Below, one piece after another: positions 12,303 through 28,984 of a stretch of DNA of 42,489 bases. Origin of the DNA: a virus. The notes beneath the pieces were generated by a model. It worked only from the letters and a program-made list of their open reading frames with translations, was not told the origin of the DNA and did no database searches. The stretch lies in the IMG/VR virus record IMGVR_UViG_3300005043_000002, one strand, 5' to 3'. Made by a program: the position numbers and the translations under genes. Position 1 is the first letter of the stretch. Each line of letters begins with the position of its first letter.

Positions 12303-12333
12303 ATGAAAACACACCGCTAACAGTCTGTCAACA
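12303..12333 (-). promoter_or_regulatory. Early-type sigma70-like promoter with the bipartite box, inside the late arm just after terL
   Basis: The minus strand reads TGTTGACA-gac-TGTTAGCG (12333-12315), then a -10-like TTTCAT (12308-12303) 17 nt after TTGACA. Confidence 0.5.
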
Positions 12334-12339
12334 ACTTAA

Positions 12340-13629
12340 TTATAAAACATCGAAAATAGATACGTCTGCGGTGATGTAATCGGCCAGCGCATAACGAGTT
12401 GCGTCAATATAATGATTCCAGTTATCAATAATCACAGGCAGAATTTCTTGTGTGTTTTTATCGACCTTATACGAGTACTTGGTTAATTCTTCAATCGTCT
12501 TAACACATCTCGGATGCACAAATATGTTATTAAACGACCTTAAATATTCAACTCCGTCTTCAACGCTGCCTTTCCACTTTGGCGCGCCCTCTACATTAAA
12601 TCCTTGCTTGCTCACATGGGATATCGTTTCGGGCCTTGAACAGTCACCGTATATTTTCCAACGCTTGGACTCTGGCACTGATCGGAACATCGTACCTATA
12701 TCATCCAACTCAACACCAACGCCGCCCGCCTCATAATCTATATATAAATTCTTCTGTCCATTTTCGAGCATGATGTACATGCGTACCAGAGTCGTAGGAT
12801 CGTTCGCGAATCCCCAATCTGCACCGAAGAAAAAACGGGTTTGGTATAATTCAGTGAGGGCAGGCGTCTCGAAATCCAGTTCCTTCCATTTTCCATGGAA
12901 AACAATTTGCTCTGCACGACCGACGGCCTCACCCATGTATTCATGATCGTATTTCATGCGGTCGGATTTCTTCAACGCCTCCGCATCTGCTATAAATTTC
13001 TGTCCTAACCATTCGGGCGGAACGTCTAAATATGTGGAGTGGTGGACGATCCTGTCGCCGTATGCTTTGTTCTCGCATTCTTTGTTGACCCATGCGGCCG
13101 GATCATTCGGCGGGTTGTATGTGATAAACTCCACAAACTTATCACCACCACGCAAAACGGATTGTTGGACGTTTCTTATTTCGTCCATACCATAGAATTC
13201 GGCGGCCTCTTCAAACCACAGGAATTTGAAATAACCTTGCTTAACATTTATCGACTTGAGCTTGAGTGGATTATCTAGCCCCTTCATTATGATTTTTTGG
13301 CCAGTGGGTAGGTATGTGATTTCAGGCGGTGATTTCGTATGAGAGAAAAACGCATCTACCTTAAGCATACTAATCGCCCATAAAAGCGTTTCAAGAACCG
13401 ATGTCCTGATCGTCTCCCCAACCTTACGAACCACAAGCGCGTTTGCGTCGGGATCTTCTATCATCCCTAATATTATCTGTATGGCGGCGAAAGACGATTT
13501 AGTCGATCCACGTCCGCCCTTGAGCCAGATTGAAACCGTGGCCTTTAATCTTATTCTGCGATGGATAGGATAGAAGACGGGGGCGATAACTGTTTTAAGA
13601 GATACCTCAGTCATCGTCTGGAATATCAT
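12340..13629 (-). CDS. terL: Terminase large subunit
   Basis: 429-aa ORF with Walker A-like KGGRGSTKS, a nuclease-half pattern, and a position after terS. An alternative coupled start lies at 13614 (ATGA with the terS stop). Confidence 0.85.
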   Translation of the reverse strand: MIFQTMTEVSLKTVIAPVFYPIHRRIRLKATVSIWLKGGRGSTKSSFAAIQIILGMIEDPDANALVVRKVGETIRTSVLETLLWAISMLKVDAFFSHTKSPPEITYLPTGQKIIMKGLDNPLKLKSINVKQGYFKFLWFEEAAEFYGMDEIRNVQQSVLRGGDKFVEFITYNPPNDPAAWVNKECENKAYGDRIVHHSTYLDVPPEWLGQKFIADAEALKKSDRMKYDHEYMGEAVGRAEQIVFHGKWKELDFETPALTELYQTRFFFGADWGFANDPTTLVRMYIMLENGQKNLYIDYEAGGVGVELDDIGTMFRSVPESKRWKIYGDCSRPETISHVSKQGFNVEGAPKWKGSVEDGVEYLRSFNNIFVHPRCVKTIEELTKYSYKVDKNTQEILPVIIDNWNHYIDATRYALADYITADVSIFDVL

Positions 13630-14155
13630 CCTTGAGAACTGTTGGGGTTATATCCTTAAACTCTAATTTATCGACGAACATACCACGATCTTTACCAAGC
13701 ATATCAAGCGCGGCCTTTTTATCCGATACCTTGATTTTCATTACTTCGGCGAAACCTACGTTTTCATTTCCCACCATACATATATCAACGCCAGATATTG
13801 CGCCGGCGGTATCATCATCAAGTTTGGAAATATGGATAGGCTTGCCATCATCATCGAATAATTTACGCGCATCATAGAAGGCAATCTTTGCAAGTTCCGC
13901 AGTGATACGCTCGGCGGTAATGTTAAGTTTGTTCTGTACTTTAAGCCTCTCATTGCGCAAATAAGCCGCTATATGTGGTTTGTTGCGGTTTTCATAACCA
14001 ATAGACGAGGCCGCGTTTTCAGAGTATCCCGCGTCGATTGCAGCCTGTGTAGCGTTATCATCTACAAGCACATTGTCTGCCCATAATCTAGATTTGGCCG
14101 TCCACCCTTCGGATGCTGGTCTATCTTTATCATCGCTTGGTTTGGGTTCCGTCAT
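13607..14155 (-). CDS. terS: Terminase small subunit (Terminase_2 / P27 type)
   Basis: ATQAAIDAGYSENAASSIGYENRNKPHIAAYL matches the helix-turn-helix core of Terminase_2 small subunits. It is the first gene of the late arm. Confidence 0.8.
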   Translation of the reverse strand: MTEPKPSDDKDRPASEGWTAKSRLWADNVLVDDNATQAAIDAGYSENAASSIGYENRNKPHIAAYLRNERLKVQNKLNITAERITAELAKIAFYDARKLFDDDGKPIHISKLDDDTAGAISGVDICMVGNENVGFAEVMKIKVSDKKAALDMLGKDRGMFVDKLEFKDITPTVLKDDIPDDD

Positions 14156-14171
14156 TTGAATAACCTCCGTG

Positions 14172-14190
14172 TTGTTATCACAATGTTAGC
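14172..14190 (-). promoter_or_regulatory. Bipartite box in the late-operon leader (no TTGACA -35)
   Basis: The plus strand reads TGTTATCA-caa-TGTTAGCA and the minus strand reads TGCTAACA-ttg-TGATAACA. It lies 17-35 nt upstream of the terS ATG. Confidence 0.5.
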
Positions 14191-14270
14191 ACACTTCTAT
14201 ATGCGTTGGGAATATCAAAAACACCTAAAATACCCCCTATTATGTAAATGGGTTTGGGTAATAAAATTAC

Positions 14271-14320
14271 GGGCCATTTGGTGTCCAGTGTTCCTGTTGT
14301 TATATCAATGACTTAGCCTA
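14271..14320. repeat. Direct repeat copy 1 (core GGCCATTTGGTGTCCAGTGTT)
   Basis: About 50 bp, roughly 80 percent identical by eye to 14337..14386 (66-bp period). The core TTTGGTGTCCA recurs at 14571..14581. Confidence 0.8.
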
Positions 14321-14336
14321 AATATATTATGTTAAA

Positions 14337-14386
14337 TGGCCAGATGGTGTCCAGTGTTTATTTAATTAGATCAACGACTTAACCCT
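14337..14386. repeat. Direct repeat copy 2 (core GGCCAGATGGTGTCCAGTGTT)
   Basis: See 14271..14320. Confidence 0.8.
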
Positions 14387-14469: not shown

Positions 14470-14720
14470 AGTAAAATATAGAAATTAGTACAGCGTTTTT
14501 TTCAAACCCGAAAACAGGGGGTAAAAACCGCAGAGTTGAGCCGAATGAGTGGGTTTGGGTTTTTGGGGTAATTTGGTGTCCATTTACATAAGTAGGGTCA
14601 AATGTGTGATATGTAAAACAAAAACAGGTAAAAACAGGGTGTGAAAAGTGCTGTTTTAGGGTAAAAAGGGTCAAAAAGGGGTGAGCAAAACGCTGTTTCA
14701 GGTATGCTACGCAAGATTGT

Positions 14721-14751
14721 TGCTTGACACAGTGCTTACAGTGTGCAAGAG
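14721..14751 (+). promoter_or_regulatory. Early promoter P1 with bipartite box
   Basis: gcTTGACA-cag-TGCTTACA. The -10 region is weak (AAGAGT at 17 nt). A-tracts phased at about 10-11 bp lie upstream (14618-14690). It is 36 nt upstream of the first early ATG. Confidence 0.5.
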
Positions 14752-14786
14752 TACAGATATTGAAACGCTAACAGAGAGCAAACAGA

Positions 14787-15164
14787 ATGACCAAAAAGTT
14801 AATTTTAGAAAATACAAGTTTCCTTAAAGAGTGCGGGCAAGGTTTCGAATTTCCCGTCGATGAAAATAATATTCTCACGATTAATAAGTGTGCGACGATT
14901 GGTATAGGTGATTATAACAGGGGTCATTTTGATTTATGGTCATTTGATATGACAAATGAAGGCGACCGTATTAACATCGGTATCGCACAGATTAAAATCG
15001 ACATGTCTACGCTAAAAACAAACATCGATATTCATGGCGAATTAATCAAAAATCTTGAGCGTGAATTAAAAGACGAAATGGCCGACCATGAGGTTAAGAT
15101 CAACCACCTAAAATCTCAGATTAGTAAATTGATGGCGATTGAATATCAGGGGGATGAGGGATAA
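14787..15164 (+). CDS. Hypothetical early protein (125 aa, C-terminal coiled coil)
   Basis: First ORF after P1. Confidence 0.65.
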   Translation: MTKKLILENTSFLKECGQGFEFPVDENNILTINKCATIGIGDYNRGHFDLWSFDMTNEGDRINIGIAQIKIDMSTLKTNIDIHGELIKNLERELKDEMADHEVKINHLKSQISKLMAIEYQGDEG

Positions 15165-15298
15165 TGAGCACAGAATTATTAACCACGATTATGTGTGTAT
15201 TATTTGTTTTGTTGGTCGGATATTTCGGTATTAAAATGAAAGCACAAGAATACCAAGCGGCTCAAATTATCATTAACGGATGTAAGGAATTAAAATAA
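15164..15298 (+). CDS. 44-aa single-pass membrane micro-protein (untracked)
   Basis: Hand translation: MSTELLTTIMCVLFVLLVGYFGIKMKAQEYQAAQIIINGCKELK. TAATG overlaps at both ends. Confidence 0.5.
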   Translation: MSTELLTTIMCVLFVLLVGYFGIKMKAQEYQAAQIIINGCKELK

Positions 15299-15963
15299 TG
15301 CACATGCACTTAGAAATTATCATGCCACCGACTGACGATGTTGAGTCGTCAATTAAACAAATACTTGCGCCGTTCGATGAGAATGGAAAAGACGACTGTT
15401 GTGATCCGGACCCCCATGCTTTTTGGGATTTTTATGTTATCGGCGGTAGATATGCTGGTGAGAAAAAGAGCCAGAGTTTTGATAAAGAAAGTCTTACTGC
15501 TTTTTATAAAGACCTTAACAAAAATAAAATTACTGTAAGTAGCTTGCAGTGTGGCAAACAAAAACTTGAGCCGTCCAGCCAGATACCTACCGTGGATAAA
15601 TTATGGGTTAAGCATTTCCCAGATGGTGGCAAAGTCTGCCCGATATTTGACCACTATAACGACCAATACGAACATAGCGAGGGTTATCCTGATATTATGA
15701 CGCTGAAAGATACACCTGAAAATCTTGAGGTGCATCACGTGATTATCGCCACGCCTGATTGGGAAGATAAAATCGCGGCTCATTATATGGTTGAGAACAG
15801 CGTTTATAACGGCGTTAATTATCTTGACACTAAATGGGATGGTACAATTAAGGGCGCGTTAGAAATGAGCGCAGAGAAAAATAAACGTTACACAGAAGAG
15901 GCGAAAGAAAAATACACGCCTAAAGATGATTGGCTCGTAGTAACGGTTGATTATCATTCTTAA
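15298..15963 (+). CDS. Hypothetical early protein (221 aa) with FWDFYVIGGRY motif
   Basis: ORF with AAGGA 10 nt upstream. No function recognised. Confidence 0.7.
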   Translation: MHMHLEIIMPPTDDVESSIKQILAPFDENGKDDCCDPDPHAFWDFYVIGGRYAGEKKSQSFDKESLTAFYKDLNKNKITVSSLQCGKQKLEPSSQIPTVDKLWVKHFPDGGKVCPIFDHYNDQYEHSEGYPDIMTLKDTPENLEVHHVIIATPDWEDKIAAHYMVENSVYNGVNYLDTKWDGTIKGALEMSAEKNKRYTEEAKEKYTPKDDWLVVTVDYHS

Positions 15964-15992
15964 GTTATCTGGAAATATAAGGAATTAAAATA

Positions 15993-16439
15993 ATGGAAAA
16001 TGAACTCAGAATTGAACGGTTAACGATGCTCGCCGATATGTTGGATAGACATGACGAGCTGTTTAAAGTGGTGTTTGATATAAGGCAGTGGGGCAGTGAA
16101 GCTATCCACTATGAAACTAAACAACACGAGCCAGAGTTATGCGGTAGTGCCGCCTGTGCGTTAGGTAGCGCAGCCATGTACCCACCATTTATGAAGCAGG
16201 GTTTGCGGTTGAGATATGATAGCACAGGATTTATGGTCAGGAAGGATTCTAACGTATTAAAAGAAGACGTCACGCCGTTTTATGATGGGCATGCTGATTT
16301 TATGGCAGGTTCTTGGTTTTTCGGCATAACTGGTGGTGAATCATGTGAGTTATTCGATGGCGATGAATACGGATATACTAAAGTAACCGCAGCCATGGTG
16401 GCCGAGCGGGTAAGAAAATTAATTAAGGTGTATGTATAA
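15993..16439 (+). CDS. Hypothetical early protein (148 aa) with CGSAACALGSAA motif
   Basis: ORF preceded by the same TAAGGAATTAAAATAATG initiation region as 15298. Confidence 0.7.
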   Translation: MENELRIERLTMLADMLDRHDELFKVVFDIRQWGSEAIHYETKQHEPELCGSAACALGSAAMYPPFMKQGLRLRYDSTGFMVRKDSNVLKEDVTPFYDGHADFMAGSWFFGITGGESCELFDGDEYGYTKVTAAMVAERVRKLIKVYV

Positions 16440-16750
16440 TGGAATTTAACGAAAACGAGCTAGACGATCTAGCGTTTCAAGGCGCGATAAATGCGGCGAT
16501 GAAAGTCCTTGATAGGGTTGCTCTCTGTTCGGATGATAACAGAATGGAAGCGCATTATACACGTAAAGGTGTTGAAATGATTATAACCGTAGAGGAGAAG
16601 AAACCGGAAGAGACGGAGAAGCCCGATCACTTAAATTTGATTAGATATCAAGGTATCGAAGAGAGTTTGGTTGAGGCGTATGGGACAGGTGACCCCGACG
16701 CGGTTTGGGATATTGTGGAACGTTGTTTTATAGATAGGGAGTCTAAGTAA
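16439..16750 (+). CDS. Hypothetical acidic early protein (103 aa)
   Basis: TAATG coupling at both ends. D/E-rich. Confidence 0.65.
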   Translation: MEFNENELDDLAFQGAINAAMKVLDRVALCSDDNRMEAHYTRKGVEMIITVEEKKPEETEKPDHLNLIRYQGIEESLVEAYGTGDPDAVWDIVERCFIDRESK

Positions 16751-17319
16751 TGACACAGAATAAAATAAACGTTGGCGATAAGGTTTTGATCGAGGTCGAG
16801 GTCACAGGTGTTTCTGATAATGAAATTCAATTAAAATCTAGGGGTTGGGAGGATTGGACATGTAAGTCAAAGATCAAAAAGGTAATTACTGCGCCGTTTG
16901 ATTGGGATATAGTAGAGCCTAGAATGGCGTTTAAAGATATCGAAGGTAATGTGTTCTGGTATGTTTCCAAGGGGTGGGGCGACGATAGATGCGCCGTTTT
17001 CTCCACTAATTATAGAGAGCCTATGGAAAGGCATTTAAGGTTTATGATCAAAGAGAACCTAACGCGCGCTGTAAATAAAGACCCAGAAACACCGGATAAA
17101 ACCCACACCGCCGACGAGGTACATAAAATTCTGTATAAGGAGTTTTTATACCAGTTCAAAGGTAAAAAATTAACAGAAGTAACATATGCAGAAATGAAAG
17201 CATGGTGGTTAAATAAACTGCTAGATTATTTTCCGTATGAGAAAACCACACCGAGTATATCTATCGCTATAAGCGACGAGGGCGGTATTATTGTTAATTT
17301 TGAAGGTGAGGGCGCGTAA
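16750..17319 (+). CDS. Hypothetical early protein (189 aa)
   Basis: Coupled ORF. Confidence 0.65.
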   Translation: MTQNKINVGDKVLIEVEVTGVSDNEIQLKSRGWEDWTCKSKIKKVITAPFDWDIVEPRMAFKDIEGNVFWYVSKGWGDDRCAVFSTNYREPMERHLRFMIKENLTRAVNKDPETPDKTHTADEVHKILYKEFLYQFKGKKLTEVTYAEMKAWWLNKLLDYFPYEKTTPSISIAISDEGGIIVNFEGEGA

Positions 17320-17660
17320 TGGGTAATGTTGATATTGAAGAATTATGCGATGTTATACGCCAAATTCTTATTGGCCACAACTTGCACAATATGATTAATG
17401 AGGGTGATGAGTGCGGATATTCTCTGGCCGATGCTTTAACCATGGATGGTCAGACAGTCGATAAGGGGTATGAAGAAATACACCTGATTGTTGACGCCTT
17501 ATTTCACCCAATAAAAGACTACCTAAACCAATGCGGATTAATTGGTCAGTCGATGCCAATAGAAAGGATAGAGGATAAAGAGTTAATGTATCTGCATAAA
17601 GACAATAAAATATACGAATGTAGAGTGATCGGCGAAGTTAAACCAGAGTTTAGGAGATGA
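17319..17660 (+). CDS. Hypothetical acidic early protein (113 aa)
   Basis: Coupled ORF. D/E-rich. Confidence 0.65.
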   Translation: MGNVDIEELCDVIRQILIGHNLHNMINEGDECGYSLADALTMDGQTVDKGYEEIHLIVDALFHPIKDYLNQCGLIGQSMPIERIEDKELMYLHKDNKIYECRVIGEVKPEFRR

Positions 17661-17666
17661 AAATAA

Positions 17667-18209
17667 ATGACAATACTTGAGCAAATGCAAAAAATAAAAT
17701 TCGGCAAACAGTCAAACGAGACAATTCTCGGTATATTTCTATCTAAGAATTGGGATAATTTCGTATCATTAATACACCGGAATAAAACCCTTGAGCGTCA
17801 GAACACTGATTTGCAGGCGGCGAATACTAAGCATCGTTTGGAGAACAGGGGATTAAAAAAAGGCCTGAAAGATTGCCTCGAATGTATTCTAATGCCGGAT
17901 AATGGCGTCAGTGACGTGATTTGGTATGGTGATTTTGAGAGTTTAGCCGAACATATTGCGGGCGTGCTTGATGAGGATATTGATTTCGAAGAGGTGGCCG
18001 CGTCTGTCCAGAATAGAAAAATTCAGTATCGTTGCCCTAAAACCGATGATTTTGAGGTGTTGGCGCTGAAAGAAGAAAATCATCGTTTGCGCGATGCTTT
18101 GGAATTGATGTTAAAATCACCAGAAAACGAAGACGGAACACCTTGGATTAATGGTGGCATGTCTACGGTTCAAGAGATTTGCGAAAACGCCCTAAAAGGT
18201 GACACGTGA
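17667..18209 (+). CDS. Hypothetical early protein (180 aa)
   Basis: AGGAG lies upstream of the ATG. Confidence 0.65.
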   Translation: MTILEQMQKIKFGKQSNETILGIFLSKNWDNFVSLIHRNKTLERQNTDLQAANTKHRLENRGLKKGLKDCLECILMPDNGVSDVIWYGDFESLAEHIAGVLDEDIDFEEVAASVQNRKIQYRCPKTDDFEVLALKEENHRLRDALELMLKSPENEDGTPWINGGMSTVQEICENALKGDT

Positions 18210-18337
18210 TGTTTGAAGTTGCGATGGTTATTTGTATTATTATTTTAGGTCTTGGATATTCTCTCGGATATATCCACGGTTATTTTAAAGCATATGGTAT
18301 TTTTACGGCAGAAGATGAAACGGAGAACGAATTATGA
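18209..18337 (+). CDS. 42-aa single-pass membrane micro-protein (untracked)
   Basis: Hand translation: MFEVAMVICIIILGLGYSLGYIHGYFKAYGIFTAEDETENEL. The ATG overlaps the upstream TGA. Confidence 0.5.
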   Translation: MFEVAMVICIIILGLGYSLGYIHGYFKAYGIFTAEDETENEL

Positions 18338-18462: not shown

Positions 18463-18464
18463 CC

Positions 18465-18495
18465 TGTTGACACTGTGTTATCAACCTGCTATCAC
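18465..18495 (+). promoter_or_regulatory. Early promoter P2 with bipartite box
   Basis: TGTTGACA-ctg-TGTTATCA, with -10-like TATCAC 17 nt after TTGACA. Confidence 0.5.
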
Positions 18496-18523
18496 TTATA
18501 TTAACAAACAGGGAGTTACCAAT

Positions 18524-20403: not shown

Positions 20404-20404
20404 T

Positions 20405-20434
20405 TGTTGACACTAAGCTAACACTGTGTAAAAT
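20405..20434 (+). promoter_or_regulatory. Early promoter P3 with bipartite box
   Basis: TGTTGACA-cta-AGCTAACA, with -10 TAAAAT at 16-nt spacing. Confidence 0.55.
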
Positions 20435-20473
20435 ATCCATAGCTCATTATCACCAATAGGAAACCCACTCACC

Positions 20474-22936: not shown

Positions 22937-23307
22937 TGAAAGTTAAAGTAGGACAAGTTTTTCATAGTTTATACATAGACAGTGAAACCCTAGAACATGA
23001 TTGGTCGCAACATGTCGTAAGAACAATAAGGGGTGGTTACGTTCATTTAATACTTAAATCAGCCTCCACATATGGCAAGAGAAGCAAAAAGAACGGCGAT
23101 TACGGTTGGTACGATAATATACCGTCTTATTGCAGGACTAAATTTCCTATTGGAGAAAAGTCCTTTAGTGTTTTTTCAACAAAATTACAAGCGTGGTCGA
23201 GTTCTAAAAAATTCCATGATTCGTCCATTAAACGAGGTGCATTTGAGGGTTATAGCCCCGAACATATGAAGAAAATAGAAAAGAAATTCAAAAGAATAAG
23301 ACCGTAA
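22933..23307 (+). CDS. Hypothetical protein (124 aa)
   Basis: Coupled ORF between the primase and the helicase. Confidence 0.6.
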   Translation: MMKVKVGQVFHSLYIDSETLEHDWSQHVVRTIRGGYVHLILKSASTYGKRSKKNGDYGWYDNIPSYCRTKFPIGEKSFSVFSTKLQAWSSSKKFHDSSIKRGAFEGYSPEHMKKIEKKFKRIRP

Positions 23308-23310
23308 AAA

Positions 23311-24804
23311 ATGACCGAAATAAACCTATTCTCAGACCAACAAAAATTGGTAAACAAGGCCCGCGCATCCATAGGGCGTGGCTGTAAATCCCTGTTGATC
23401 CAAGCCACCACAGGCGCAGGTAAGACCGTCATGGCGAGTTCTATGATTAAGGGATCAAACGCCAAAGGATTTAAAACTGCGTTCTGCGTGCCGAGAAAAC
23501 AGCTACTTGAACAGATGGGAAAGACATTCAGGAAATACGACATAGATTATTCTTATGTTGCCTCTGGAGAATTTTTCGATGAATCAAGTATGAATCACGT
23601 TTGCTCAATGCAAACACTGGTTAATCGGCTTGACGTTATAGACCCAAGGGTCATTTATTTCGATGAAACACATTGGGGTGAGGGCCAGTTAAACAAGATA
23701 ATAAAACATTTTAAGGAAACACCGTGGATTGATCCTGTTACAAAAAAATCACATCAGAGGATTATTATCGGTCTTTCCGCCACACCTTGGAAAATGAACG
23801 GCAGGGGGCTTGGCTGTTATTATGACGATATGGTCGAGGGCGAATCTGTCCGCTGGTTAATGGATAATAAAAGACTCTCAGATTACCGTTTGTTTGGTGT
23901 TTCTAATCCTGATTTATCAATGATAAAAATGGTCAATGGTGAATACAGTCAAACTCAATTACGTGAGAAAATGGAAGGTGATAAGGTTCTCATTGGTGAC
24001 GCCGTTTCTCATTATAAAAAACATGCATACGGTAAACTTAATGTGACGTTTTGCGCGTCGATTAAACACAGTAAAATGACAGCCGAGGCGTTTAACAACG
24101 CAGGAATTCCGGCGGCACACATGGACGCAGAAACCCCCATGCATGAGCGCATGAGAATTATTAAGGATTTCGCCCTAAGAAAATTATGGGTGATTTGTTC
24201 TGTTGATTTGTTGTGTTTTGGGTTTGATTTAGCCTCTCAAGTTAACATGGACGTAACTGTCGAATGCTTGAGCGATTTACGACCCACCATGTCGCTTGCT
24301 CTTCAAATGCAGAAATGGGGCCGCGTTCTCAGAATGAAGGACGAACCAGCGTTAATATTCGATCATGCTGGTAATTCCATGAAATTCGACGGTACGGAAA
24401 ATCATGGTTTGCCTTGCATGGATAGATTGTGGACATTGCTGGACCGCCAGAAGAAATCAAAAAAAGATGAAGAGGAGAAAGCAGAAACAACACGGCGTTG
24501 CCCAGACTGTTTTAATCTTCATAAACCCCAGCCCAAGTGCCCATGTTGTGGCCATATATATAAAATAAAACCCATGAAGAAATTGGAAACCATCGACGCA
24601 GAATTAAGAGAAATCGAGATCGTCAAGAAAAAACGCGCGGCCAGAATTCAAGAGGGCATGTGCGAAACTCTGGAAGATTGGAAAGAAGTAGCCAAGGATC
24701 GCGGAAACTCCGAAGCATGGGCGAACATCAGATATAAAAAACGCGAAGAAATCAACGCAAAGAAAAAACTTGAAAAACTCAACGGACAGATTGAATTGAT
24801 ATGA
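23311..24804 (+). CDS. SF2 DEAD/DEAH-box helicase with C-terminal zinc ribbon
   Basis: Walker A ATTGAGKT, DETH box, SAT-like LSATP, and CPDCF...CPCCGH. Confidence 0.8.
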   Translation: MTEINLFSDQQKLVNKARASIGRGCKSLLIQATTGAGKTVMASSMIKGSNAKGFKTAFCVPRKQLLEQMGKTFRKYDIDYSYVASGEFFDESSMNHVCSMQTLVNRLDVIDPRVIYFDETHWGEGQLNKIIKHFKETPWIDPVTKKSHQRIIIGLSATPWKMNGRGLGCYYDDMVEGESVRWLMDNKRLSDYRLFGVSNPDLSMIKMVNGEYSQTQLREKMEGDKVLIGDAVSHYKKHAYGKLNVTFCASIKHSKMTAEAFNNAGIPAAHMDAETPMHERMRIIKDFALRKLWVICSVDLLCFGFDLASQVNMDVTVECLSDLRPTMSLALQMQKWGRVLRMKDEPALIFDHAGNSMKFDGTENHGLPCMDRLWTLLDRQKKSKKDEEEKAETTRRCPDCFNLHKPQPKCPCCGHIYKIKPMKKLETIDAELREIEIVKKKRAARIQEGMCETLEDWKEVAKDRGNSEAWANIRYKKREEINAKKKLEKLNGQIELI

Positions 24805-24980
24805 TCTTGAGAATTGGAACGATTATTTATTCTGCCGATGGTACGGACGAAGAACCCGTAAACGTTGAAGATGCCAGAAAATGGGCGAAATCAGAAGGAT
24901 ACACGGCGAATGATGTATCTATAAGAAAAGGCGAAAATTCAGTTATTATTAAACTTAAAAGGAATGTTGAATATGAATGA
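24801..24980 (+). CDS. Hypothetical 59-aa protein (untracked)
   Basis: Hand translation begins MILRIGTIIYSADGTDEEPVNVEDARKWAKSEGY. The ATG overlaps the helicase TGA. Confidence 0.5.
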   Translation: MILRIGTIIYSADGTDEEPVNVEDARKWAKSEGYTANDVSIRKGENSVIIKLKRNVEYE

Positions 24981-25083
24981 AGATAAAAAAGGAATATTAG
25001 ATTTAAGCACGTTAGCAAAGGTAGTATATGCCAGTAATTGGATGATGATACCAAAAACATAGCTTACATTTCATCGCCCATGG

Positions 25084-25290
25084 GTGATATCCGAAGAAAT
25101 GAACCAAGGATTAGATGAACTTGTTGAAGCTGGATTCCTAAAAGCTGAAAAATCAGATAACCCGCATTCTGATGCTATTACATGGAAACCCACCGAAAGA
25201 ATGTTATGCGAAAGGACATGGCTTGAAAAAGATTTTGTCATGAAAAACGCAAATTTTAAAATTATAGATGAAAGCAGAGTTAAAACATGA
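25084..25290 (+). CDS. Hypothetical 68-aa protein (GTG start as tracked); possibly the 3' part of a longer frame, 24973..25290, interrupted by one TAG
   Basis: No SD lies before GTG 25084 or ATG 25099. The same frame is open from ATG 24973 except for TAG at 25060-25062. Confidence 0.5.
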   Translation: MISEEMNQGLDELVEAGFLKAEKSDNPHSDAITWKPTERMLCERTWLEKDFVMKNANFKIIDESRVKT

Positions 25291-25748
25291 GTGAATCAAA
25301 CGTAGTTAAACGAATCATGATGGATTTATCTGCCATGGGTTGCCGCCTGTTTAGGAATAATGTCGGCGAAGTGTGGACGGGGAAATATAGACGCATAAAC
25401 AAAGATCAGGCCGTCATGTGTGAGGAGGGCGATGTAATCATAAAACACGCCCGCAGATTTCACGGGGGTCTTGTGGTTGGTTCTGGTGATATTATAGGCT
25501 GGACTCCGACATTAATCACGCCTGATATGGTGGGTCTAACGCTGGCAATATTCACAGATATAGAAGGAAAAAAAGACGAGAAAACCGCGATTTCTTCTGC
25601 AAAATCACGTTCAGCGCATGAACAAAGTCAACAACGATTCGCGGAGGCTGTTATAAAGGGCGGGGGATTTGCAGGATTTGCAGGCTCGACAGAGCAAGCG
25701 CAGGAAATTATAAACCCCTCTAGACTGACCGAGCCGCGTTGTCCTTAA
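25287..25748 (+). CDS. VRR-NUC domain nuclease
   Basis: The GSGDIIGW...IFTDIEGKK pattern (D...E.K) and the trailing Q..F......GG...F are typical of VRR-NUC proteins. Confidence 0.65.
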   Translation: MSESNVVKRIMMDLSAMGCRLFRNNVGEVWTGKYRRINKDQAVMCEEGDVIIKHARRFHGGLVVGSGDIIGWTPTLITPDMVGLTLAIFTDIEGKKDEKTAISSAKSRSAHEQSQQRFAEAVIKGGGFAGFAGSTEQAQEIINPSRLTEPRCP

Positions 25749-25896
25749 TAATTAGCATTTCAACAGCGTTAGACAAACTTGTCGTTGACGCGATTTCTCC
25801 GTCTTCAATTCTTTGTTTGTGAATCTTAACGAAACTTTCATAAGCTGCCGTCTTAACTCTAAAACCAACGGCTTTTAATTTAGTTTTTGTTTTCAT
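25720..25896 (-). CDS. 58-aa ribbon-helix-helix-like DNA-binding protein (untracked); candidate regulator
   Basis: Hand translation: MKTKTKLKAVGFRVKTAAYESFVKIHKQRIEDGEIASTTSLSNAVEMLIIKDNAARSV. AAGGAG lies 8 nt upstream. It has a basic N-terminus, a short beta-like AVGFRV and two helices, as in Arc/CopG. It is the only leftward gene in the early arm. Confidence 0.55.
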   Translation of the reverse strand: MKTKTKLKAVGFRVKTAAYESFVKIHKQRIEDGEIASTTSLSNAVEMLIIKDNAARSV

Positions 25897-25909
25897 TTAG
25901 TAAACTCCT

Positions 25910-25940
25910 TGTTGACATTGTGCTAACAGTAGTATATCAC
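25910..25940 (+). promoter_or_regulatory. Early promoter P4 with bipartite box
   Basis: TGTTGACA-ttg-TGCTAACA, with -10-like TATCAC at 17 nt. Confidence 0.55.
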
Positions 25941-25959
25941 ATTGATAACGATGTCAACA
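25931..25959 (-). promoter_or_regulatory. Leftward promoter for the RHH-like gene, overlapping P4 face to face
   Basis: The minus strand carries TTGACA (25957-25952) and an extended -10 TGaTATACT (25939-25931). Two more 8-mers, TGATAACG (25943-50) and TGTCAACA (25952-59), lie here. Confidence 0.45.
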
Positions 25960-26184
25960 AACAAAAAGGTATTTATTATGTTTAAGCGTATGATTTTTAG
26001 GATTAAACTTGCTTATGGGATGTTAATCGCAACAGACGAATCATTGCGTGATGTGGATCAGATTATTGATTTAATGTTTTTCGCGCAAAGAGGGCAAACG
26101 TTATATGTATGCACTTTAAAAAAATTCGGCAAGAACAATAATTTCGAACGTTTCAAGCCATTAATAACAATTAATAGAATATAA
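25951..26184 (+). CDS. Hypothetical 77-aa protein
   Basis: Start moved to the ATG (MSTNKKVF). The tracked TTG start lies inside the promoter region. Confidence 0.5.
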   Translation: MSTNKKVFIMFKRMIFRIKLAYGMLIATDESLRDVDQIIDLMFFAQRGQTLYVCTLKKFGKNNNFERFKPLITINRI

Positions 26185-26322
26185 TTTTTTATGGGGGTGC
26201 GGTGTTGACGCTTCAACAAGTGCGAGGGGCTTCTAAGGGCCAAATATTAATCCGCATCTCTACATAAGGCAGGTAATCAATCCTGTCACCCCCAGCCAAT
26301 TTATACAACGAAAGAAAAACCC
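26185..26322 (+). promoter_or_regulatory. Structured leader B (conserved 3' block shared with 19381..19421)
   Basis: TGCGG (26198-202) pairs with CCGCA (26252-56), and the G-run 26193-97 pairs with the C-run 26289-93. There is a local hairpin GTTGA-cgct-TCAAC. The last 49 nt resemble leader A up to the ATG. Confidence 0.45.
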
Positions 26323-27210
26323 ATGACTGCCCAATTAATCAAAGACCTATCAAATAAAGACTATCACGCGCACAAGGCTACGAGCCGATCCGCGTTAATG
26401 GAATTAAACAAATCCCCTAAAAAATATCATCACAAGTTTATTTCAGAAGATTACGAGCATAAAGAAACGGATGCCCTCCGCCTTGGTTCTGCGTTCCATA
26501 CTCTAGTTTTAGAGCCAGAGGATTTTGCGGAACATTGCGCAATTCATCCAGAGGGTAAAAAACGCCCAACGAAACCACAATTAAACGCCAAAGAAAAAAC
26601 GGACTCTACGGCTTTATTGATTAAGTTTTGGGAAAAATTCGACGATGAAAACGACGGTAAAACCATCATCAAACAGGACGAAGTTGATAAACTTACAGCC
26701 ATGGCGAAATCCCTGCGATCAGAACCAGCGGCGCAGAAAATCCTTGGCCAAAAGGGCTTGATTGAGCCGTCTATCTTCTGGACGGACAAGGAAACAGGTA
26801 TTGATATGAAGTGCAAACTTGATTTTGTGCCGTTGAATTACTCTATTCTCGTCGATCTTAAAACCACCGCAAGCGTAGACCGTAACAAATTCGAGAAATC
26901 TATCGCGGACTTCGGTTATGATTTGCAGGCGTTCATAGCAACAGAGGCGATATTTCAACTCACCGGAACACGCCCCGAAATGTTTGTTTTCGCCGCCGTT
27001 GAGAAAGAACCTCCTTACGATACAGGGTTTTTCATGGCCGATAGTATCGTCTTAAAGCGCGGTGAATTGCTCTACAGACATCTACTTAATAAGCTGGCCG
27101 GATGTCGTGTGAAAGACGAGTGGCCATCACAGGGCGGTGGAAAAGTGCAAGCCGTGTCATTGTCGCCGTGGGTCATTAATAAAATGGATGAATTGAAGGG
27201 TGAGGAATAA
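26323..27210 (+). CDS. PD-(D/E)XK exonuclease (RecE-like / DUF3799 type)
   Basis: ILVDLKTTASVD...FGYDLQAF is the D-x-K core typical of PDDEXK recombination exonucleases. Confidence 0.7.
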   Translation: MTAQLIKDLSNKDYHAHKATSRSALMELNKSPKKYHHKFISEDYEHKETDALRLGSAFHTLVLEPEDFAEHCAIHPEGKKRPTKPQLNAKEKTDSTALLIKFWEKFDDENDGKTIIKQDEVDKLTAMAKSLRSEPAAQKILGQKGLIEPSIFWTDKETGIDMKCKLDFVPLNYSILVDLKTTASVDRNKFEKSIADFGYDLQAFIATEAIFQLTGTRPEMFVFAAVEKEPPYDTGFFMADSIVLKRGELLYRHLLNKLAGCRVKDEWPSQGGGKVQAVSLSPWVINKMDELKGEE

Positions 27211-27869
27211 TGGATATACAGTATAAAGTAGGCGGTAATTCAGGAAGTAACACCAGACGGTATACGCAAATTATAGGGCGTGTCTCAAGAGATAATGTAT
27301 ATCGCGGAGAATCATATAAACGATGCCCAATAACAGGAACTATTTTACCAATTAAAATCGAAAACGAAGAAAGCAATAAAATGAACAGCATTAAAAAAAT
27401 ACGCGAAAATTTGAATAAAGCACTTGAGGGAATCGATGCACTTGAGAAACAGGAAACGCCTGCGCCTAAAAAATGGGATGCGTCTAAATTGGTCGATGGC
27501 GATAGATATTCCTACAATGATTCTTTTGGTGGCTCATACTCTAAAACATGGCGTGATACTAAGTACGATACTCACCGTTTAAAAACAGGCAACGTATTTG
27601 AAACCAAAGAAGCAGCAGAATACCATACATTTACGATCGACGTGGCATGGTCAATCAAGCAACGAGCGTTCGAGCCGGACTGGGACAACTCACACCAAGA
27701 TAAATGGTATGTTTCTCACCATCATATCCTACACCATACAAGATTTAATAGTATACACACCAGTGAACGTTCAGGATTATACTTCGAAACTCGTGCAATA
27801 GCCGAAACAGCATTCGAGGGTATATCAGATAAAGATTTCCTATATATGATGCGCAACAGGTTGATATAA
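27210..27869 (+). CDS. Hypothetical protein (219 aa)
   Basis: TAATG-coupled ORF between the exonuclease and recT. Confidence 0.6.
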   Translation: MDIQYKVGGNSGSNTRRYTQIIGRVSRDNVYRGESYKRCPITGTILPIKIENEESNKMNSIKKIRENLNKALEGIDALEKQETPAPKKWDASKLVDGDRYSYNDSFGGSYSKTWRDTKYDTHRLKTGNVFETKEAAEYHTFTIDVAWSIKQRAFEPDWDNSHQDKWYVSHHHILHHTRFNSIHTSERSGLYFETRAIAETAFEGISDKDFLYMMRNRLI

Positions 27870-27870
27870 A

Positions 27871-27901
27871 CATTGACACCCTGCTAACTAACCGTTAACA
27901 T
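27871..27901 (+). promoter_or_regulatory. Early promoter P5 with bipartite box
   Basis: caTTGACA-ccc-TGCTAACT, with -10-like TAACAT at 17 nt. Confidence 0.5.
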
Positions 27902-27927
27902 GCACAAACAAACAACAGGATAAAATC

Positions 27928-28821
27928 ATGAGCAACAGTTTACAATTAATCGAAACCGAACTAAAACAACCCGCTACAATGGGGCGCATGTCTCTTGCTC
28001 TTGGTTTTACCGACGTGGACGATCCGGCCGCAAAAAACGAGGCTCGGAAATATATATCTTCTGTTCTTGCCGAAATTGAGAAAACAGCGGGCGACCCTAA
28101 GAAGGATTTAACCATGTGTAGCGCGCCGAGTATTATACGCTGTATGGTTGACGCTGCAAAGATGAAAATGCAAATAGACGGCAGGCAACACGCGCACCTT
28201 ATAAAATATGGGAATAACGCCACCCTTCAAATCGGTTATAGGGGTTATCTTGCGAAAATAAAACAAGCATATCCCGACGCTGTTTTTACGGTCCAGCCAG
28301 TTTATCAAGGTGATGAAATCACCGTATGGCATGAAGATGGCAACCAATTTTATAAATATGTGAATAATAACCTGTTCTCCTCTGGTGAGAATAATTTCCT
28401 TGGTATCCTGTTCGCCGTCACGTACACCGACGGAGGCCGTCAAGTCAGTAAGGTGTCGGATGTGTCCAAAGAACGAGTTGACCGCGCCAAGAGTGCCGCA
28501 AAACAAAAATACGTGTGGGGTTCTGATTATATAGAGAAAGCAAAAGCGGCGGCGATTAAGAACGCATGCAAACACCTGTTCGCCAGTATAACCGATCTGC
28601 AAACCGTCATGAGATATGATAATGATAAAAATCATAAGGTAGATAATAACGCTACGGACCCGCAGACCCGCAGTATTCTGGATAATCTCAACGCAGATAT
28701 TGACTCGATCCTTCCCAAGAAACAGATAAGCGAAGACGAGGGCGGTGTTTTAGTTGATGAAGACGAGGGCGAATCCGGTGAAATAATAACAGTGAATGAA
28801 GACGAAGTGCAGATAATGTAA
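27928..28821 (+). CDS. recT: RecT-family single-strand annealing protein
   Basis: CSAPSIIRCMVDAAKMKMQIDG..HAHLIKYG..ATLQIGYRGY matches the RecT core pattern. Acidic C-terminal tail. Confidence 0.7.
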   Translation: MSNSLQLIETELKQPATMGRMSLALGFTDVDDPAAKNEARKYISSVLAEIEKTAGDPKKDLTMCSAPSIIRCMVDAAKMKMQIDGRQHAHLIKYGNNATLQIGYRGYLAKIKQAYPDAVFTVQPVYQGDEITVWHEDGNQFYKYVNNNLFSSGENNFLGILFAVTYTDGGRQVSKVSDVSKERVDRAKSAAKQKYVWGSDYIEKAKAAAIKNACKHLFASITDLQTVMRYDNDKNHKVDNNATDPQTRSILDNLNADIDSILPKKQISEDEGGVLVDEDEGESGEIITVNEDEVQIM

Positions 28822-28839
28822 AGAAGGAGTATTGATATT

Positions 28840-28959
28840 ATGGGAGAGTATGCGGAAATGGAAATCGATAAACATATCGGTGACTGGAACGGGGAAATAT
28901 TCAGCGAATATCCATACGAAGACGACGACGATGAGGAATTACCTTTATTTAGTTGTTGA
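28840..28959 (+). CDS. 39-aa acidic micro-protein (untracked)
   Basis: Hand translation: MGEYAEMEIDKHIGDWNGEIFSEYPYEDDDDEELPLFSC. AAGGAG lies 10 nt upstream. Confidence 0.5.
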   Translation: MGEYAEMEIDKHIGDWNGEIFSEYPYEDDDDEELPLFSC

Positions 28960-28984
28960 CAGTGTGCTAACAGTCCGCTATCTT
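28954..28984 (+). promoter_or_regulatory. Early promoter P6 with bipartite box
   Basis: TGTTGACA-gtg-TGCTAACA, with -10-like TATCTT at 17 nt. Confidence 0.55.

What the first reader, a model, noticed from the sequence alone, without database searches (positions are those of the whole stretch)
12315..28972. A 19-bp bipartite box (TGTTGACA-N3-TGCTAACA) sits on the -35 of every rightward early promoter and recurs at two places in the late arm
Copies read directly from the sequence:
- 14721-14739: gcTTGACA cag TGCTTACA
- 18465-18483: TGTTGACA ctg TGTTATCA
- 20405-20423: TGTTGACA cta AGCTAACA
- 25910-25928: TGTTGACA ttg TGCTAACA
- 27871-27889: caTTGACA ccc TGCTAACT
- 28954-28972: TGTTGACA gtg TGCTAACA
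- 12333-12315 on the minus strand: TGTTGACA gac TGTTAGCG
- 14172-14190 in the terS leader: TGTTATCA caa TGTTAGCA

Each rightward copy lies in a gap that opens a block of translationally coupled genes. A -10-like hexamer follows 16-17 nt after TTGACA. Sigma70 does not need a conserved spacer, so the second 8-mer is extra information.

Both 8-mers are variants of the quasi-palindrome TGYTAACA, spaced 11 bp centre to centre. That is the geometry used by dimer-of-dimers repressors such as ribbon-helix-helix proteins. The copy in the late leader lacks a good -35. This suggests one factor coordinates early shut-off and late control.
Basis: partly seen in the sequence, partly recalled or inferred. 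Interest (0 to 1): 0.7.

Follow-up and report, generated by a model that had tools for sequence, protein, structure and literature searches.

The report
Phage early-promoter operator box array
Every predicted early promoter of this uncultured 42-kb phage carries an extra conserved 8-base near-palindrome one DNA turn after its -35 element, most likely the landing site of a small phage-encoded repressor; this is a tidy new example of a known kind of viral gene control.

Summary
All seven non-coding, gene-oriented TTGACA sites in the window carry TG.T.ACA exactly 3 nt downstream. A matrix for that second 8-mer, built only from two related phages, ranks these seven first among all 27 TTGACA (Fisher p about 1e-10). 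The generic pattern TG.T.ACA-N3-TG.T.ACA occurs 3 times perfectly, against 0.01 in shuffles and 0 in 4.2 Mb of other loci.

Three related metagenomic phage lineages keep the same architecture with their own variant of unit 2: TGTTTACA, TGTTAACA, and TGCTAACA here. N3 and the flanks are free. The units continue in 11-bp phase into the extended -10. They form 4-5-unit arrays next to the only leftward gene of the early arm (25720-25896, 58 aa).

That gene is syntenic in all relatives and is tandemly duplicated in one. It has no Pfam family. Its best PDB match is the ribbon-helix-helix domain of TraM (E = 0.12).

A promoter-less copy lies in the terS leader here and in one relative.

Best reading: operator arrays for a phage-encoded RHH-like repressor laid over sigma70-type early promoters. 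Binding and its sign are untested. I rate it a new member of a known kind, of moderate interest.

The parts
14722..14740 (+). Box at the first early promoter: GCTTGACA-cag-TGCTTACA. TGc + AAGAGT (-10-like) lies at 14744-14752, and further phased units follow at 14766 and 14777. It opens the gene block that starts at 14787.
18465..18494 (+). Three phased units: TGTTGACA-ctg-TGTTATCA-acc-TGCTATCA. The -10 TATCAC is at 18490-18495. It opens the block that starts at 18521.
20405..20423 (+). Box TGTTGACA-cta-AGCTAACA. The -10 TAAAAT is at 20429-20434 (16-nt spacer). It lies upstream of the primase/VapE gene at 20474. Boxes sit at the orthologous gap in L025 (7675), L189 (9927) and L351 (7063).
25899..25959 (.). 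Switch region. The rightward promoter box TGTTGACA-ttg-TGCTAACA lies at 25910-25928, with -10 TATCAC at 25935-25940. It sits inside a phased array: AGTAAACT, TGTTGACA, TGCTAACA, GTATATCA, TGATAACG. A facing leftward promoter has -35 TGTTGACA at 25959..25952 on the minus strand, with -10 TACTAC at 25934..25929 or TATACT at 25936..25931. That promoter would drive the 58-aa gene.
   Evidence: This region is 89% identical to L268, against 63-68% in the flanking genes.
25720..25896 (-). 58-aa candidate regulator (P0121). It is the only leftward gene in the early arm and is the probable ribbon-helix-helix protein.
   Evidence: Homologues are syntenic in L024, L025 (tandem-duplicated, 121 aa), L026, L350 and L268. 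AF2 predicts helices 16-32 and 41-57 with a free N-terminus. The best PDB hit is the TraM RHH domain 4qpo_A at E = 0.12. There is no Pfam or PHROG hit.
27871..27900 (+). Three phased units: CATTGACA-ccc-TGCTAACT-aac-CGTTAACA. The -10 TAACAT is at 27896-27901. It lies upstream of the RecT gene at 27928.
28954..28972 (+). Box TGTTGACA-gtg-TGCTAACA. The -10 TATCTT is at 28979-28984. It opens the last early block, at 29012. The counterpart in L025 is at 14706.
12293..12333 (-). Four phased units on the minus strand: TGTTGACA-gac-TGTTAGCG-gtg-TGTTTTCA-tgt-TGATAGAA. The -10 TTTCAT is at 12308..12303. This promoter-type box lies between terL and a block of about 12 small genes (12275..9237). Counterparts are in L025 (2116-) and L351 (1534-).
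14173..14191 (-). Promoter-less double unit in the terS leader: on the minus strand TGCTAACA-ttg-TGATAACA, ending 17 nt before the terS ATG (14155). It is a perfect match to the generic pattern. L351 has a positional counterpart (TTATTACA-caa-TGTTAACA); L025 has a degenerate one.

Best explanation
The box is an operator laid over sigma70-type early promoters.

Anatomy. The basic unit is an 8-bp near-palindrome, ideally TGTTAACA. Here it appears as TGTTGACA where it must also serve as the -35, and as TGCTAACA in the spacer. Units repeat every 11 bp, so successive units face the same side of the helix. Unit 1 contains the -35. Unit 2 fills positions about -26 to -19. Unit 3 coincides with TGn plus the -10. 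Some arrays run to 4-5 units.

Proposed binder (inferred). The 58-aa product of the leftward gene 25720-25896 is a probable ribbon-helix-helix protein. It would bind one dimer per unit, with neighbouring dimers cooperating. This would occlude RNA polymerase at all seven early-type promoters. It would also cover the start region of its own face-to-face promoter, giving autoregulation.

Late leader (inferred). The promoter-less double unit 17 nt upstream of terS would let the same protein act on the late operon, most simply as a roadblock.

Shown here: the units exist, exceed chance, are non-coding and phased, and are conserved with lineage-specific variants. The small gene is syntenic and sits beside the longest array.

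Inferred, not shown: binding, the identity of the binder, repression rather than activation, and timing.
For: 1. Independent statistics. A unit-2 matrix built from relatives ranks the 7 promoter sites top of 27 TTGACA (Fisher 1.5e-10). The generic pattern gives 3 perfect hits against 0.01 in shuffles and none in 4.17 Mb of other loci.

2. Conservation with concerted variation. Unit 2 is TGCTAACA in the window and L268, TG(T/A)TTACA in L025 and L189, and TGTTAACA in L351. It always sits 3 nt after TGTTGACA, and N3 and the flanks are uninformative.

3. Footprint. The switch region is 89% identical between the window and L268, against 63-68% in the flanking genes. Two of its four differences fall in N3.

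4. A copy with no room for a promoter. It ends 17 nt from the terS ATG and is a perfect match. It recurs at the same place in L351. This argues for a binding site rather than a promoter element.

5. The units are palindromic, which fits a two-fold symmetric binder.

6. The 58-aa gene. It is the only leftward early gene and lies next to the 5-unit array. It is syntenic in every relative in which this region was recovered. It is fused as two tandem domains in L025, as expected of an obligate dimer. Its helix pattern and its 8-residue G...S loop align with the TraM RHH domain. The strand motif GFR is shared by the four homologues whose phages have TG.T.ACA-type units. It is changed in L024 and L026, whose promoters lack them.

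7. No other DNA-binding domain was detected among the early proteins scanned.
Against: - No binding or transcription data exist.
- The RHH assignment is weak. There is no Pfam hit. The PDB hit has E = 0.12. The AF2 monomer shows only two helices at pLDDT 71. Foldseek found nothing.
- The correlation between the strand motif and the box rests on 6 loci, and L350 (NFRV strand) fits it poorly.
- Unit 3 is also what an extended -10 promoter would look like anyway, so part of the phasing follows from promoter geometry.
- A repressor that blocks both the early promoters and the late leader is awkward for a phage with no detected lysogeny genes.
- The perfect -35 paired with a weak -10 could instead suggest a need for an activator.
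Confidence: 0.5

Rival explanations
1. The box is an operator for a trans-acting protein, but the binder is another phage protein and not the 58-aa one. Candidates are the small unannotated products that directly follow a box: 18521-18655, 25978-26184 and 29012-29167.
For: Most early proteins have no detectable family, so a hidden DNA-binding protein is possible. L025 encodes a GerE/LuxR-type HTH protein directly after its box at 14706. The RHH assignment of the 58-aa protein is weak.
Against: None of these products shows an HTH or RHH signal in the window. The GerE protein was seen only in L025. Only the 58-aa gene has the conserved position, the divergent orientation and the adjacency to the longest array in all relatives.
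Confidence: 0.15
2. Unit 2 is a promoter-intrinsic or activator element. On this reading, RNA polymerase needs it to fire from promoters that pair a perfect -35 with a weak -10. The polymerase might be modified by a phage sigma70-binding cofactor, such as the GcrA C-terminal-like 70-aa protein (19062-19274) together with the phage methyltransferase.
For: The GcrA-like domain is significant (Pfam E = 4.9e-13) and is present in the window, L025, L026 and L351. GcrA is a sigma70 cofactor that acts at promoters methylated near the core elements (PMC4647560, PMC5887438). The -10 hexamers are weak: TATCAC, AAGAGT, TTTCAT.
Against: The window protein covers only the C-terminal part of the Pfam GcrA model (positions 102-147 of 155). 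From the published GcrA structure this is the sigma-binding part, so it would lack the DNA-binding domain. L026 has a GcrA-like gene but no box. The boxes contain no GANTC. The leader copy has no promoter to activate. Every early-type promoter carries the box, including the first one, so an activator made from these same promoters could not start the cycle.
Confidence: 0.13
3. The box is the site of a host transcription factor that binds 11-bp-spaced repeats. An example would be an OmpR/PhoB/CtrA-type response regulator. The phage would then read the state of the host.
For: TTGA-N7-(C/T)TAA resembles the CtrA box TTAA-N7-TTAA. Host CtrA is known to control phage promoters in Alphaproteobacteria (PMC9437464). 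GcrA-like genes hint at an alphaproteobacterial host.
Against: The best-conserved positions are TG and ACA, which lie outside the TTAA core. The variable positions (3 and 5 of the unit) lie inside it. No window site has TTAA in both halves. Each unit is itself palindromic, which tandem response-regulator sites need not be. Unit 2 changes in concert between related phages, and close relatives lack it altogether. The host is unknown.
Confidence: 0.1
4. There is no function beyond the promoter. On this reading the seven promoters are copies of one ancestral promoter, and the shared spacer is inherited.
For: Phage promoters do spread by duplication, and the sites share TG before the -35.
Against: Information content is near zero in N3 and in both flanks, but high in unit 2. 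The same offset and palindrome type persist across lineages whose primases are only 52-59% identical. Between the window and L268, differences fall in N3 and not in the units. The leader copy is not a promoter.
Confidence: 0.05

Closest known systems
P22 Arc and Mnt (ribbon-helix-helix repressors of Pant in the immI region)
   Same: These are small (53-82 aa) RHH proteins. Two dimers bind adjacent sub-sites about one helical turn apart, on an operator that overlaps a strong phage promoter, and they autoregulate. This comparison rests on my own knowledge of the Arc-operator structure.
   Different: Arc and Mnt act at one locus, whereas here there are seven promoters plus a leader site. No sequence similarity was detected. 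Here the operator unit doubles as the -35 and the extended -10, and arrays reach 4-5 units.
Omega repressor of inc18 plasmids (pSM19035), MetJ, and CopG: RHH proteins that coat arrays of short repeats
   Same: One small RHH protein cooperatively binds variable numbers of short repeated units. The units overlap the -35 or -10 of several promoters, and the protein acts as a global regulator. This comparison rests on my own knowledge.
   Different: Omega uses contiguous 7-bp heptads and MetJ uses contiguous 8-bp met boxes. Here the units are 8 bp long with a 3-bp gap, giving an 11-bp period. Those systems are plasmid or cellular, not phage early genes.
TraM N-terminal RHH domain (F-like plasmids; PDB 4qpo; PMC3159463)
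   Same: This is the best sequence match to the 58-aa family. Helix A, an 8-residue G...S loop and helix B align. TraM binds repeated motifs cooperatively.
   Different: E = 0.12 is not significant. TraM has a C-terminal tetramerisation domain and works in conjugation, not in transcription of phage genes.
Multi-operator phage repressors (P1 C1 operators, cluster A mycobacteriophage stoperators) and Aca-type repressors of strong early promoters
   Same: One phage-encoded protein has many dispersed sites that overlap or follow the promoters of separate operons. Aca proteins and archaeal-virus early-gene regulators shut down strong early promoters through a conserved motif (PMC11065993 and its reference to Stanley et al. 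2019).
   Different: P1 and cluster A phages are temperate, and their sites are asymmetric. No integrase or partition gene was found here. Aca systems usually control a single operon.
P2/186-type face-to-face promoter switch
   Same: A small leftward regulator gene and the rightward early operon start from convergent promoters whose polymerase footprints overlap.
   Different: In P2 and 186 the leftward operon carries the immunity repressor and the integrase of a temperate phage. Here it carries only the 58-aa gene.

Membership tests
Sigma70-type promoter | -35 TTGACA, a 16-18 nt spacer, and a -10 of the form TAnnnT | tested here: inconclusive
   The -35 is perfect in 7 of 7 sites and the spacer is 16-17 nt. 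The -10 varies: TATCTT, TAACAT and TAAAAT fit, TATCAC (twice) lacks the final T, and AAGAGT and TTTCAT are poor but are preceded by TG. The generic promoter scan does not discriminate (62 found against 51.5 expected).
Sigma70-type promoter | A transcription start about 7 nt downstream of the -10 | not testable with these tools
   No transcriptome data are available for this metagenomic phage.
Ribbon-helix-helix (Arc/MetJ/CopG) superfamily, for the 58-aa protein | Significant sequence or profile match to an RHH family | tested here: not met
   No RHH Pfam family was hit by any of the 7 homologues, even at E up to 10. The best PDB profile hit is the TraM RHH domain at E = 0.12, below significance. 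There is no PHROG hit.
Ribbon-helix-helix (Arc/MetJ/CopG) superfamily, for the 58-aa protein | Strand-helix-helix topology in about 45-60 residues | tested here: inconclusive
   The AF2 monomer gives helices 16-32 and 41-57. The N-terminal 15 residues are unstructured; they include the conserved hydrophobic/basic stretch AVGFRV. Mean pLDDT is 71.5. The strand forms only in a dimer, which could not be modelled. Foldseek gave no significant match.
Ribbon-helix-helix (Arc/MetJ/CopG) superfamily, for the 58-aa protein | Obligate dimer as the DNA-binding unit | tested here: inconclusive
   The L025 homologue is a head-to-tail fusion of two copies of the domain (121 aa). This is what a covalently linked dimer would look like.
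Arc-type dimer-of-dimers operator | Two (pseudo)symmetric sub-sites centred about 11 bp apart and overlapping a promoter | tested here: met
   The 8-bp near-palindromes are spaced 11 bp start to start at all sites, and the first contains the -35. This tests the geometry only; binding was not tested.
CtrA box (Alphaproteobacteria) | TTAA-N7-TTAA, with the TTAA cores as the conserved positions | tested here: not met
   The first half is TTGA in all promoter sites. The second half is CTAA, TTAT, TTAG or TTAC. Conservation peaks at TG and ACA outside the core. The motif definition is from PMC9437464.
T4 MotA-box middle promoter | TGCTTtA centred near -30 and replacing the -35, together with MotA and AsiA genes | tested here: not met
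   Unit 2 (TGCTAACA or TGCTTACA) spans about -26 to -19, next to an intact -35. No MotA or AsiA-like hit was found among the early proteins. The geometry of MotA promoters is from my own knowledge.
Temperate multi-operator immunity system (P1 C1 or stoperator type) | Lysogeny functions (integrase, partition or an equivalent) alongside the repressor | tested here: not met
   About 50 of about 76 ORFs were scanned. They gave only replication, recombination, methylase, packaging, head, tail and lysis hits. Several small ORFs remain unannotated, so absence is not proven.

The most novel reading that the evidence does not exclude
One 8-bp palindrome may serve three roles at once. It is close enough to TTGACA to act as the -35 and close enough to TGnTAnnnT to act as the extended -10. 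It is also the recognition unit of a previously unclassified family of about 55-aa RHH-like regulators. Because the 'TG' registers of the -35 and the -10 lie 22 bp apart (2 x 11), a single protein could coat the whole promoter face in three steps. The same unit in the terS leader would couple early and late expression.

Related phages carry different palindromes (TGCTAACA, TGTTAACA, TGTTTACA, possibly GTTTAAAC and TTATATAA). Their regulators also differ in the DNA-reading strand. If real, this would be a natural set of mutually orthogonal repressor/operator pairs in an otherwise virulent-looking phage group.
Probability: 0.3. Interest if true: 0.55.

Novelty: new member of a known kind. Interest (0 to 1): 0.45.

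Why it matters
If the model holds, this uncultured phage clade has no close relative in GenBank phages (the best primase match is 39% identical). It would run its whole early programme, and touch its late operon, through one tiny regulator and one 8-bp word built into the promoter elements themselves.

That would give three things:
- A compact, experimentally easy model of how operator and promoter codes are superimposed.
- A protein family absent from Pfam and PHROGs with a concrete predicted DNA target.
- Several natural operator/regulator variants that could be tested for orthogonality.

It does not overturn anything. Small repressors that sit on strong early phage promoters are well known.

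Tried and rejected
- megablast of the early arm against GenBank phages found nothing.
- An exact-pattern scan of IMG/VR with TGTTGACANNNTGCTAACA returned 20 single, unrelated hits, about what chance predicts. One locus (L020) has its copies inside segmental duplications.
- The search for related loci with the single primase sequence found nothing. The alignment-based metagenome and genome scans returned only distant relatives, 40% identity or less. The alignment-based IMG/VR scans did add L189/L190 and L270/L271. The other useful relatives came from protein look-ups.
- The word-indexed homologue search for the 58-aa protein found only itself. The full HMMER scan added two homologues.
- Pfam, PHROGs and PDB sequence searches, and Foldseek, gave no significant fold assignment for the 58-aa protein. 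The armadillo hits are repeat artefacts.
- Rfam and tRNA scans of the window were empty.
- The generic sigma70 scan does not separate these promoters from background.
- I considered and rejected these identities for the box on sequence grounds: CtrA box, MotA box, LexA/CRP/FNR/DnaA-type boxes, and a second overlapping promoter with unit 2 as its -35. For the last, a -10 17 nt downstream is present in only 1-2 sites.
- Post-hoc searches for lineage-specific units in L024, L026 and L350 gave only 1-4 sites each. I treat those as suggestive only.

Full report
**What the window is.** The 42,489-base window is a complete, circularly assembled phage genome; its ends overlap (50-99 = 42440-42489). 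It is identical to JGI metagenome contigs. It has no close relative among GenBank phages; the best primase match is 39% identical at the protein level.

Late genes lie on the minus strand. They run from terS and terL (14155 down to 12340) through the head genes to 229, and continue from 42469 down to the lysis genes at 29506. The early arm is on the plus strand, 14787-29509. It encodes:
- a methyltransferase;
- a primase/VapE protein;
- a helicase;
- an endonuclease-like protein;
- a RecE-like exonuclease;
- RecT;
- a 70-aa protein matching the C-terminal part of GcrA.

No integrase or partition gene was found among about 50 ORFs scanned.

**Checking the observation.** All eight copies exist. 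Two are one base off: the correct coordinates are 14722-14740 and 14173-14191.

TTGACA occurs 27 times on both strands, and 8 of these lie in the roughly 7% of non-coding DNA (p = 4e-4). Seven of the eight point at the downstream genes, and each has the second 8-mer exactly 3 nt after TTGACA.

To avoid circularity I built a weight matrix for the second 8-mer from sites in two related phages only. It ranks the seven window sites first among the 27 TTGACA, with per-site p of 0.0008-0.03 and a Fisher combined p of 1.5e-10.

The generic pattern TG.T.ACA-N3-TG.T.ACA behaves as follows:

| Sequence searched | Perfect hits | Hits with at most 1 mismatch |
|---|---|---|
| Window | 3 | 8 |
| 200 dinucleotide shuffles of the window (mean) | 0.01 | 0.31 |
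| 4.17 Mb of other fetched loci | 0 | 0.09 per 42.5 kb |

Single units TG.T.ACA are also concentrated outside genes: 12 of 34 lie in the 5.6% non-coding DNA (p = 1.6e-7).

'Every rightward early promoter' cannot be verified without mapped transcription starts. Three early-arm gaps have no box.

**Anatomy.** I aligned 16 sites, 7 from the window and 9 from relatives. The consensus is TGTTGACA-N3-TG.T.ACA-N3-TG.TA.C.T, and information content is near zero in both N3 stretches and in the flanks.

- The third unit is an extended -10 (TGn plus TAnnnT-like). The 'TG' of unit 1 and the 'TG' of the extended -10 are 22 bp apart, so three units sit in 11-bp phase.
- The arrays can be longer. There are three units at 18465-18494 and at 27871-27900, and four at 12333..12293 on the minus strand.
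- There are five in-phase units in 25899-25950 (AGTAAACT, TGTTGACA, TGCTAACA, GTATATCA, TGATAACG). These are followed by TGTCAACA at 25952-25959.
- That last 8-mer is the -35 of a leftward promoter facing the rightward one. The two -10 elements abut at 25929-25940. The two polymerase footprints must therefore overlap.
- The leftward promoter would drive the 58-aa gene at 25896..25720, whose AAGGAG ribosome-binding site directly follows the box on the minus strand.
- This leftward promoter is the only non-coding TTGACA without a proper unit 2.

**Relatives.** Protein searches with the primase recovered a small clade of metagenomic phages with the same gene order.

| Locus | Primase identity | Unit 2 after TGTTGACA-N3 | Sites |
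|---|---|---|---|
| L025 | 59% | TG(T/A)TTACA | five promoters |
| L189 | 54% | TGTTTA(C/T)(A/T) | three or four sites |
| L351 | 52% | TGTTAACA (perfect palindrome) | 4 of 6 TTGACA |
| L024, L026, L350 (47-58%) and L108 (40%) | as stated | different spacers | zero generic hits |

Boxes occupy orthologous gaps in several lineages:
- upstream of the primase (window 20405, L025 7675, L189 9927, L351 7063);
- after RecT (window 28954, L025 14706);
- at the start of the small-gene block on the late strand, after terL in the window (12333-) and L025 (2116-) and after terS in L351 (1534-).

Unit 2 is therefore conserved in position and type, but it changes in concert within each genome. This is the signature of a co-evolving trans factor. 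It is not the signature of a requirement of the host polymerase, nor of simple paralogy.

**The small leftward gene.** Homologues of the 58-aa protein occupy the same position and orientation in L024 (58 aa), L026 (51 aa), L350 (50 aa) and L025. In L025 the gene encodes two tandem copies of the domain (121 aa).

A full HMMER scan of 1.8 billion representatives found only two further homologues, P0124 and P0125. The short contig carrying P0124 (L268) is informative. Its protein is only 54% identical to the window's. Yet the 81-bp intergenic region is 89% identical, against 63-68% in the flanking genes. Both 8-mers are unchanged, and two of the four differences fall in N3.

The family has no Pfam or PHROG match. 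The AF2 monomer has two helices (16-32 and 41-57) after a free N-terminal segment. That segment carries the conserved AVGFRV stretch; mean pLDDT is 71.5. Foldseek found nothing significant.

The best PDB profile hit is the ribbon-helix-helix N-terminal domain of TraM (4qpo_A, E = 0.12). The alignment covers helix A, an 8-residue G...S loop and helix B (the TraM RHH fold is described in PMC3159463).

Size, pattern, the tandem fusion and this weak hit make an RHH fold likely but not demonstrated. The strand motif GFR is shared by the window, L268, L269 and both halves of the L025 protein. All of these accompany TG.T.ACA-type units. The motif differs in L024 (FGGR) and L026 (HMQI), whose promoters lack those units. 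L350 (NFRV) fits less well.

**The late-arm copies.**
- The minus-strand copy at 12333 is a promoter-type box with four phased units. It lies in front of about 12 small genes between terL and the portal gene. L025 has a counterpart after terL, and L351 has one after terS.
- The terS-leader copy reads TGCTAACA-ttg-TGATAACA on the late strand and ends 17 nt before the terS ATG. It is a perfect match to the generic pattern and leaves no room for a promoter.
- L351 has TTATTACA-caa-TGTTAACA at the same place, and L025 has a degenerate version.
- This leader site lies downstream of a motif, CCATTTACATAAT, conserved about 78 nt upstream of terS in four lineages. That motif may be part of the late promoter. 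If so, the double unit lies within the transcribed leader.

A promoter-less, positionally conserved copy is the strongest single argument that the unit is a protein-binding site and not a promoter element.

**Mechanism proposed.** The boxes are operator arrays for a phage-encoded, probably RHH, regulator. One dimer would bind each 8-bp near-palindrome, and neighbouring dimers would cooperate across 11 bp on one face of the helix.

Because the ideal unit TGTTAACA is one base from TG+TTGACA and is compatible with TGnTAnnnT, the -35 and the extended -10 can themselves be operator units. The protein could then cover the whole promoter.

The array next to its own gene overlaps the start region of the leftward promoter, which predicts autoregulation. 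The leader site predicts an effect on the late operon, most simply a roadblock.

I put about 0.75 on 'a specific trans factor other than RNA polymerase binds unit 2'. I put 0.5 on the full statement that the factor is the 58-aa protein acting as a repressor. The anatomy, statistics and conservation are shown. Binding, sign and timing are inferred.

**Rivals.**
- Another phage protein is the binder (0.15). This is possible because most early proteins are unannotated, and L025 has a GerE-type protein after one box. However, only the 58-aa gene has the conserved context.
- Unit 2 is an activator or polymerase-cofactor element linked to the GcrA-like protein (0.13; PMC4647560, PMC5887438). Against this: the window protein matches only the C-terminal part of the GcrA model, L026 has the gene but no box, and the leader copy has no promoter.
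- A host factor of the CtrA/OmpR type binds the box (0.10; PMC9437464). Against this: the conserved positions lie outside the TTAA core, and the units are individually palindromic and vary between related phages.
- Pure paralogy (0.05) is contradicted by the information profile and by the L268 comparison.

**Comparison with known systems.**
- It works like Arc and Mnt of P22, and like array-binding RHH regulators such as omega, MetJ and CopG. These comparisons rest on my own knowledge.
- It has the genome-wide reach of multi-operator phage repressors such as P1 C1 and the stoperators. It shares the logic of Aca-type shut-off of strong early promoters (PMC11065993).
- It has the face-to-face promoter layout of P2 and 186.
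- Membership in the RHH superfamily is not established: the sequence criteria were tested and not met, and the fold criteria were inconclusive.
- The CtrA-box and MotA-box criteria were tested and not met.

**Verdict.** I rate it a new member of a known kind of phage regulation, in an undescribed phage clade, involving a protein family absent from the domain databases. Interest is 0.45.

Noticed in passing
window 14240-14251 (minus strand) and 14580-14591 (plus strand); L025, L026 and L350 upstream of terS: The motif (GT)CCATTTACATAAT is conserved about 78 nt upstream of the terS start codon in four lineages. An inverted second copy in the window points toward the early arm. It could be part of a late or activator-dependent promoter. 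No sigma70-type -35 lies at the right distance.
   Followed up: partly
window 14280-14292 and 14346-14358: There are two exact copies of GGTGTCCAGTGTT, 66 bp apart, in the 631-bp terS/early intergenic region, plus a partial third (GGTGTCCATTTAC) at 14575. They could be pac/terS-binding sites or regulator sites.
   Followed up: no
window 14505-14690: A purine-rich, iteron-like stretch (AAAACAGGG, GGTAAAAAC x2, GGTAAAAAG, GGTCAAAAAGG) lies just upstream of the first early promoter. It may be an origin or a protein-loading site.
   Followed up: no
window 19062-19274: A 70-aa protein matches only the C-terminal part of the GcrA cell-cycle regulator (Pfam E = 4.9e-13). Longer GcrA-like genes occur in L025, L026 and L351. 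A 186-aa DNA methyltransferase lies nearby (19843-20403; PHROG 799). This may be a phage sigma70 cofactor, and it hints at an alphaproteobacterial host.
   Followed up: partly
L025 12277-12642 (minus strand): The homologue of the 58-aa protein is a head-to-tail fusion of two copies of the domain, 121 aa long.
   Followed up: yes
window 1-99 and 42391-42489: The ends of the window repeat each other; I checked 50-99 = 42440-42489. The sequence is therefore a circular assembly of a complete genome of about 42.4 kb.
   Followed up: yes
window 26185-26322: This 138-nt gap inside the early arm has no box. It contains GGGGGTG ... CACCCCC arms about 100 nt apart and a TGTTGACG one mismatch from unit 1. 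It may be a structured RNA or a terminator. It has no Rfam match.
   Followed up: no
window 6101-6445 and 7500-7814 (minus strand): Two small genes in the head module (114 and 104 aa) are clear paralogues. They share ...LY.VR....GVEQ..PSIE.IGG.V.IY.SQ..P..APTGMN.
   Followed up: no
window 4910-6082 (minus strand): A 390-aa protein with a signal-peptide-like N-terminus (MKKNILYAVVIMGLGLVCSISSFA) sits inside the head-gene block. It has only a weak tail-fibre PHROG hit.
   Followed up: no
L020 (IMGVR_UViG_638275726_000006) 938, 1523, 4940 and 8050, minus strand: There are four copies of tggtttgTTGACAaagTGCTAGCAatgatgtacttacagg in an unrelated contig. They lie inside segmental duplications, so they are not an independent instance of the box.
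   Followed up: partly
L026 3267, 15458 (minus strand) and 18882; L350 11594; L024 14660 and 16507-16562: Relatives that lack the TG.T.ACA unit have other AT-rich 8-bp palindromes at the same offset after the -35, phased by 11 bp. L026 and L350 have TTATATAA-like units; L024 has GTTTAAA(C)-like units. These may be lineage-specific operators, but the sites are few and the patterns were chosen post hoc.
   Followed up: partly
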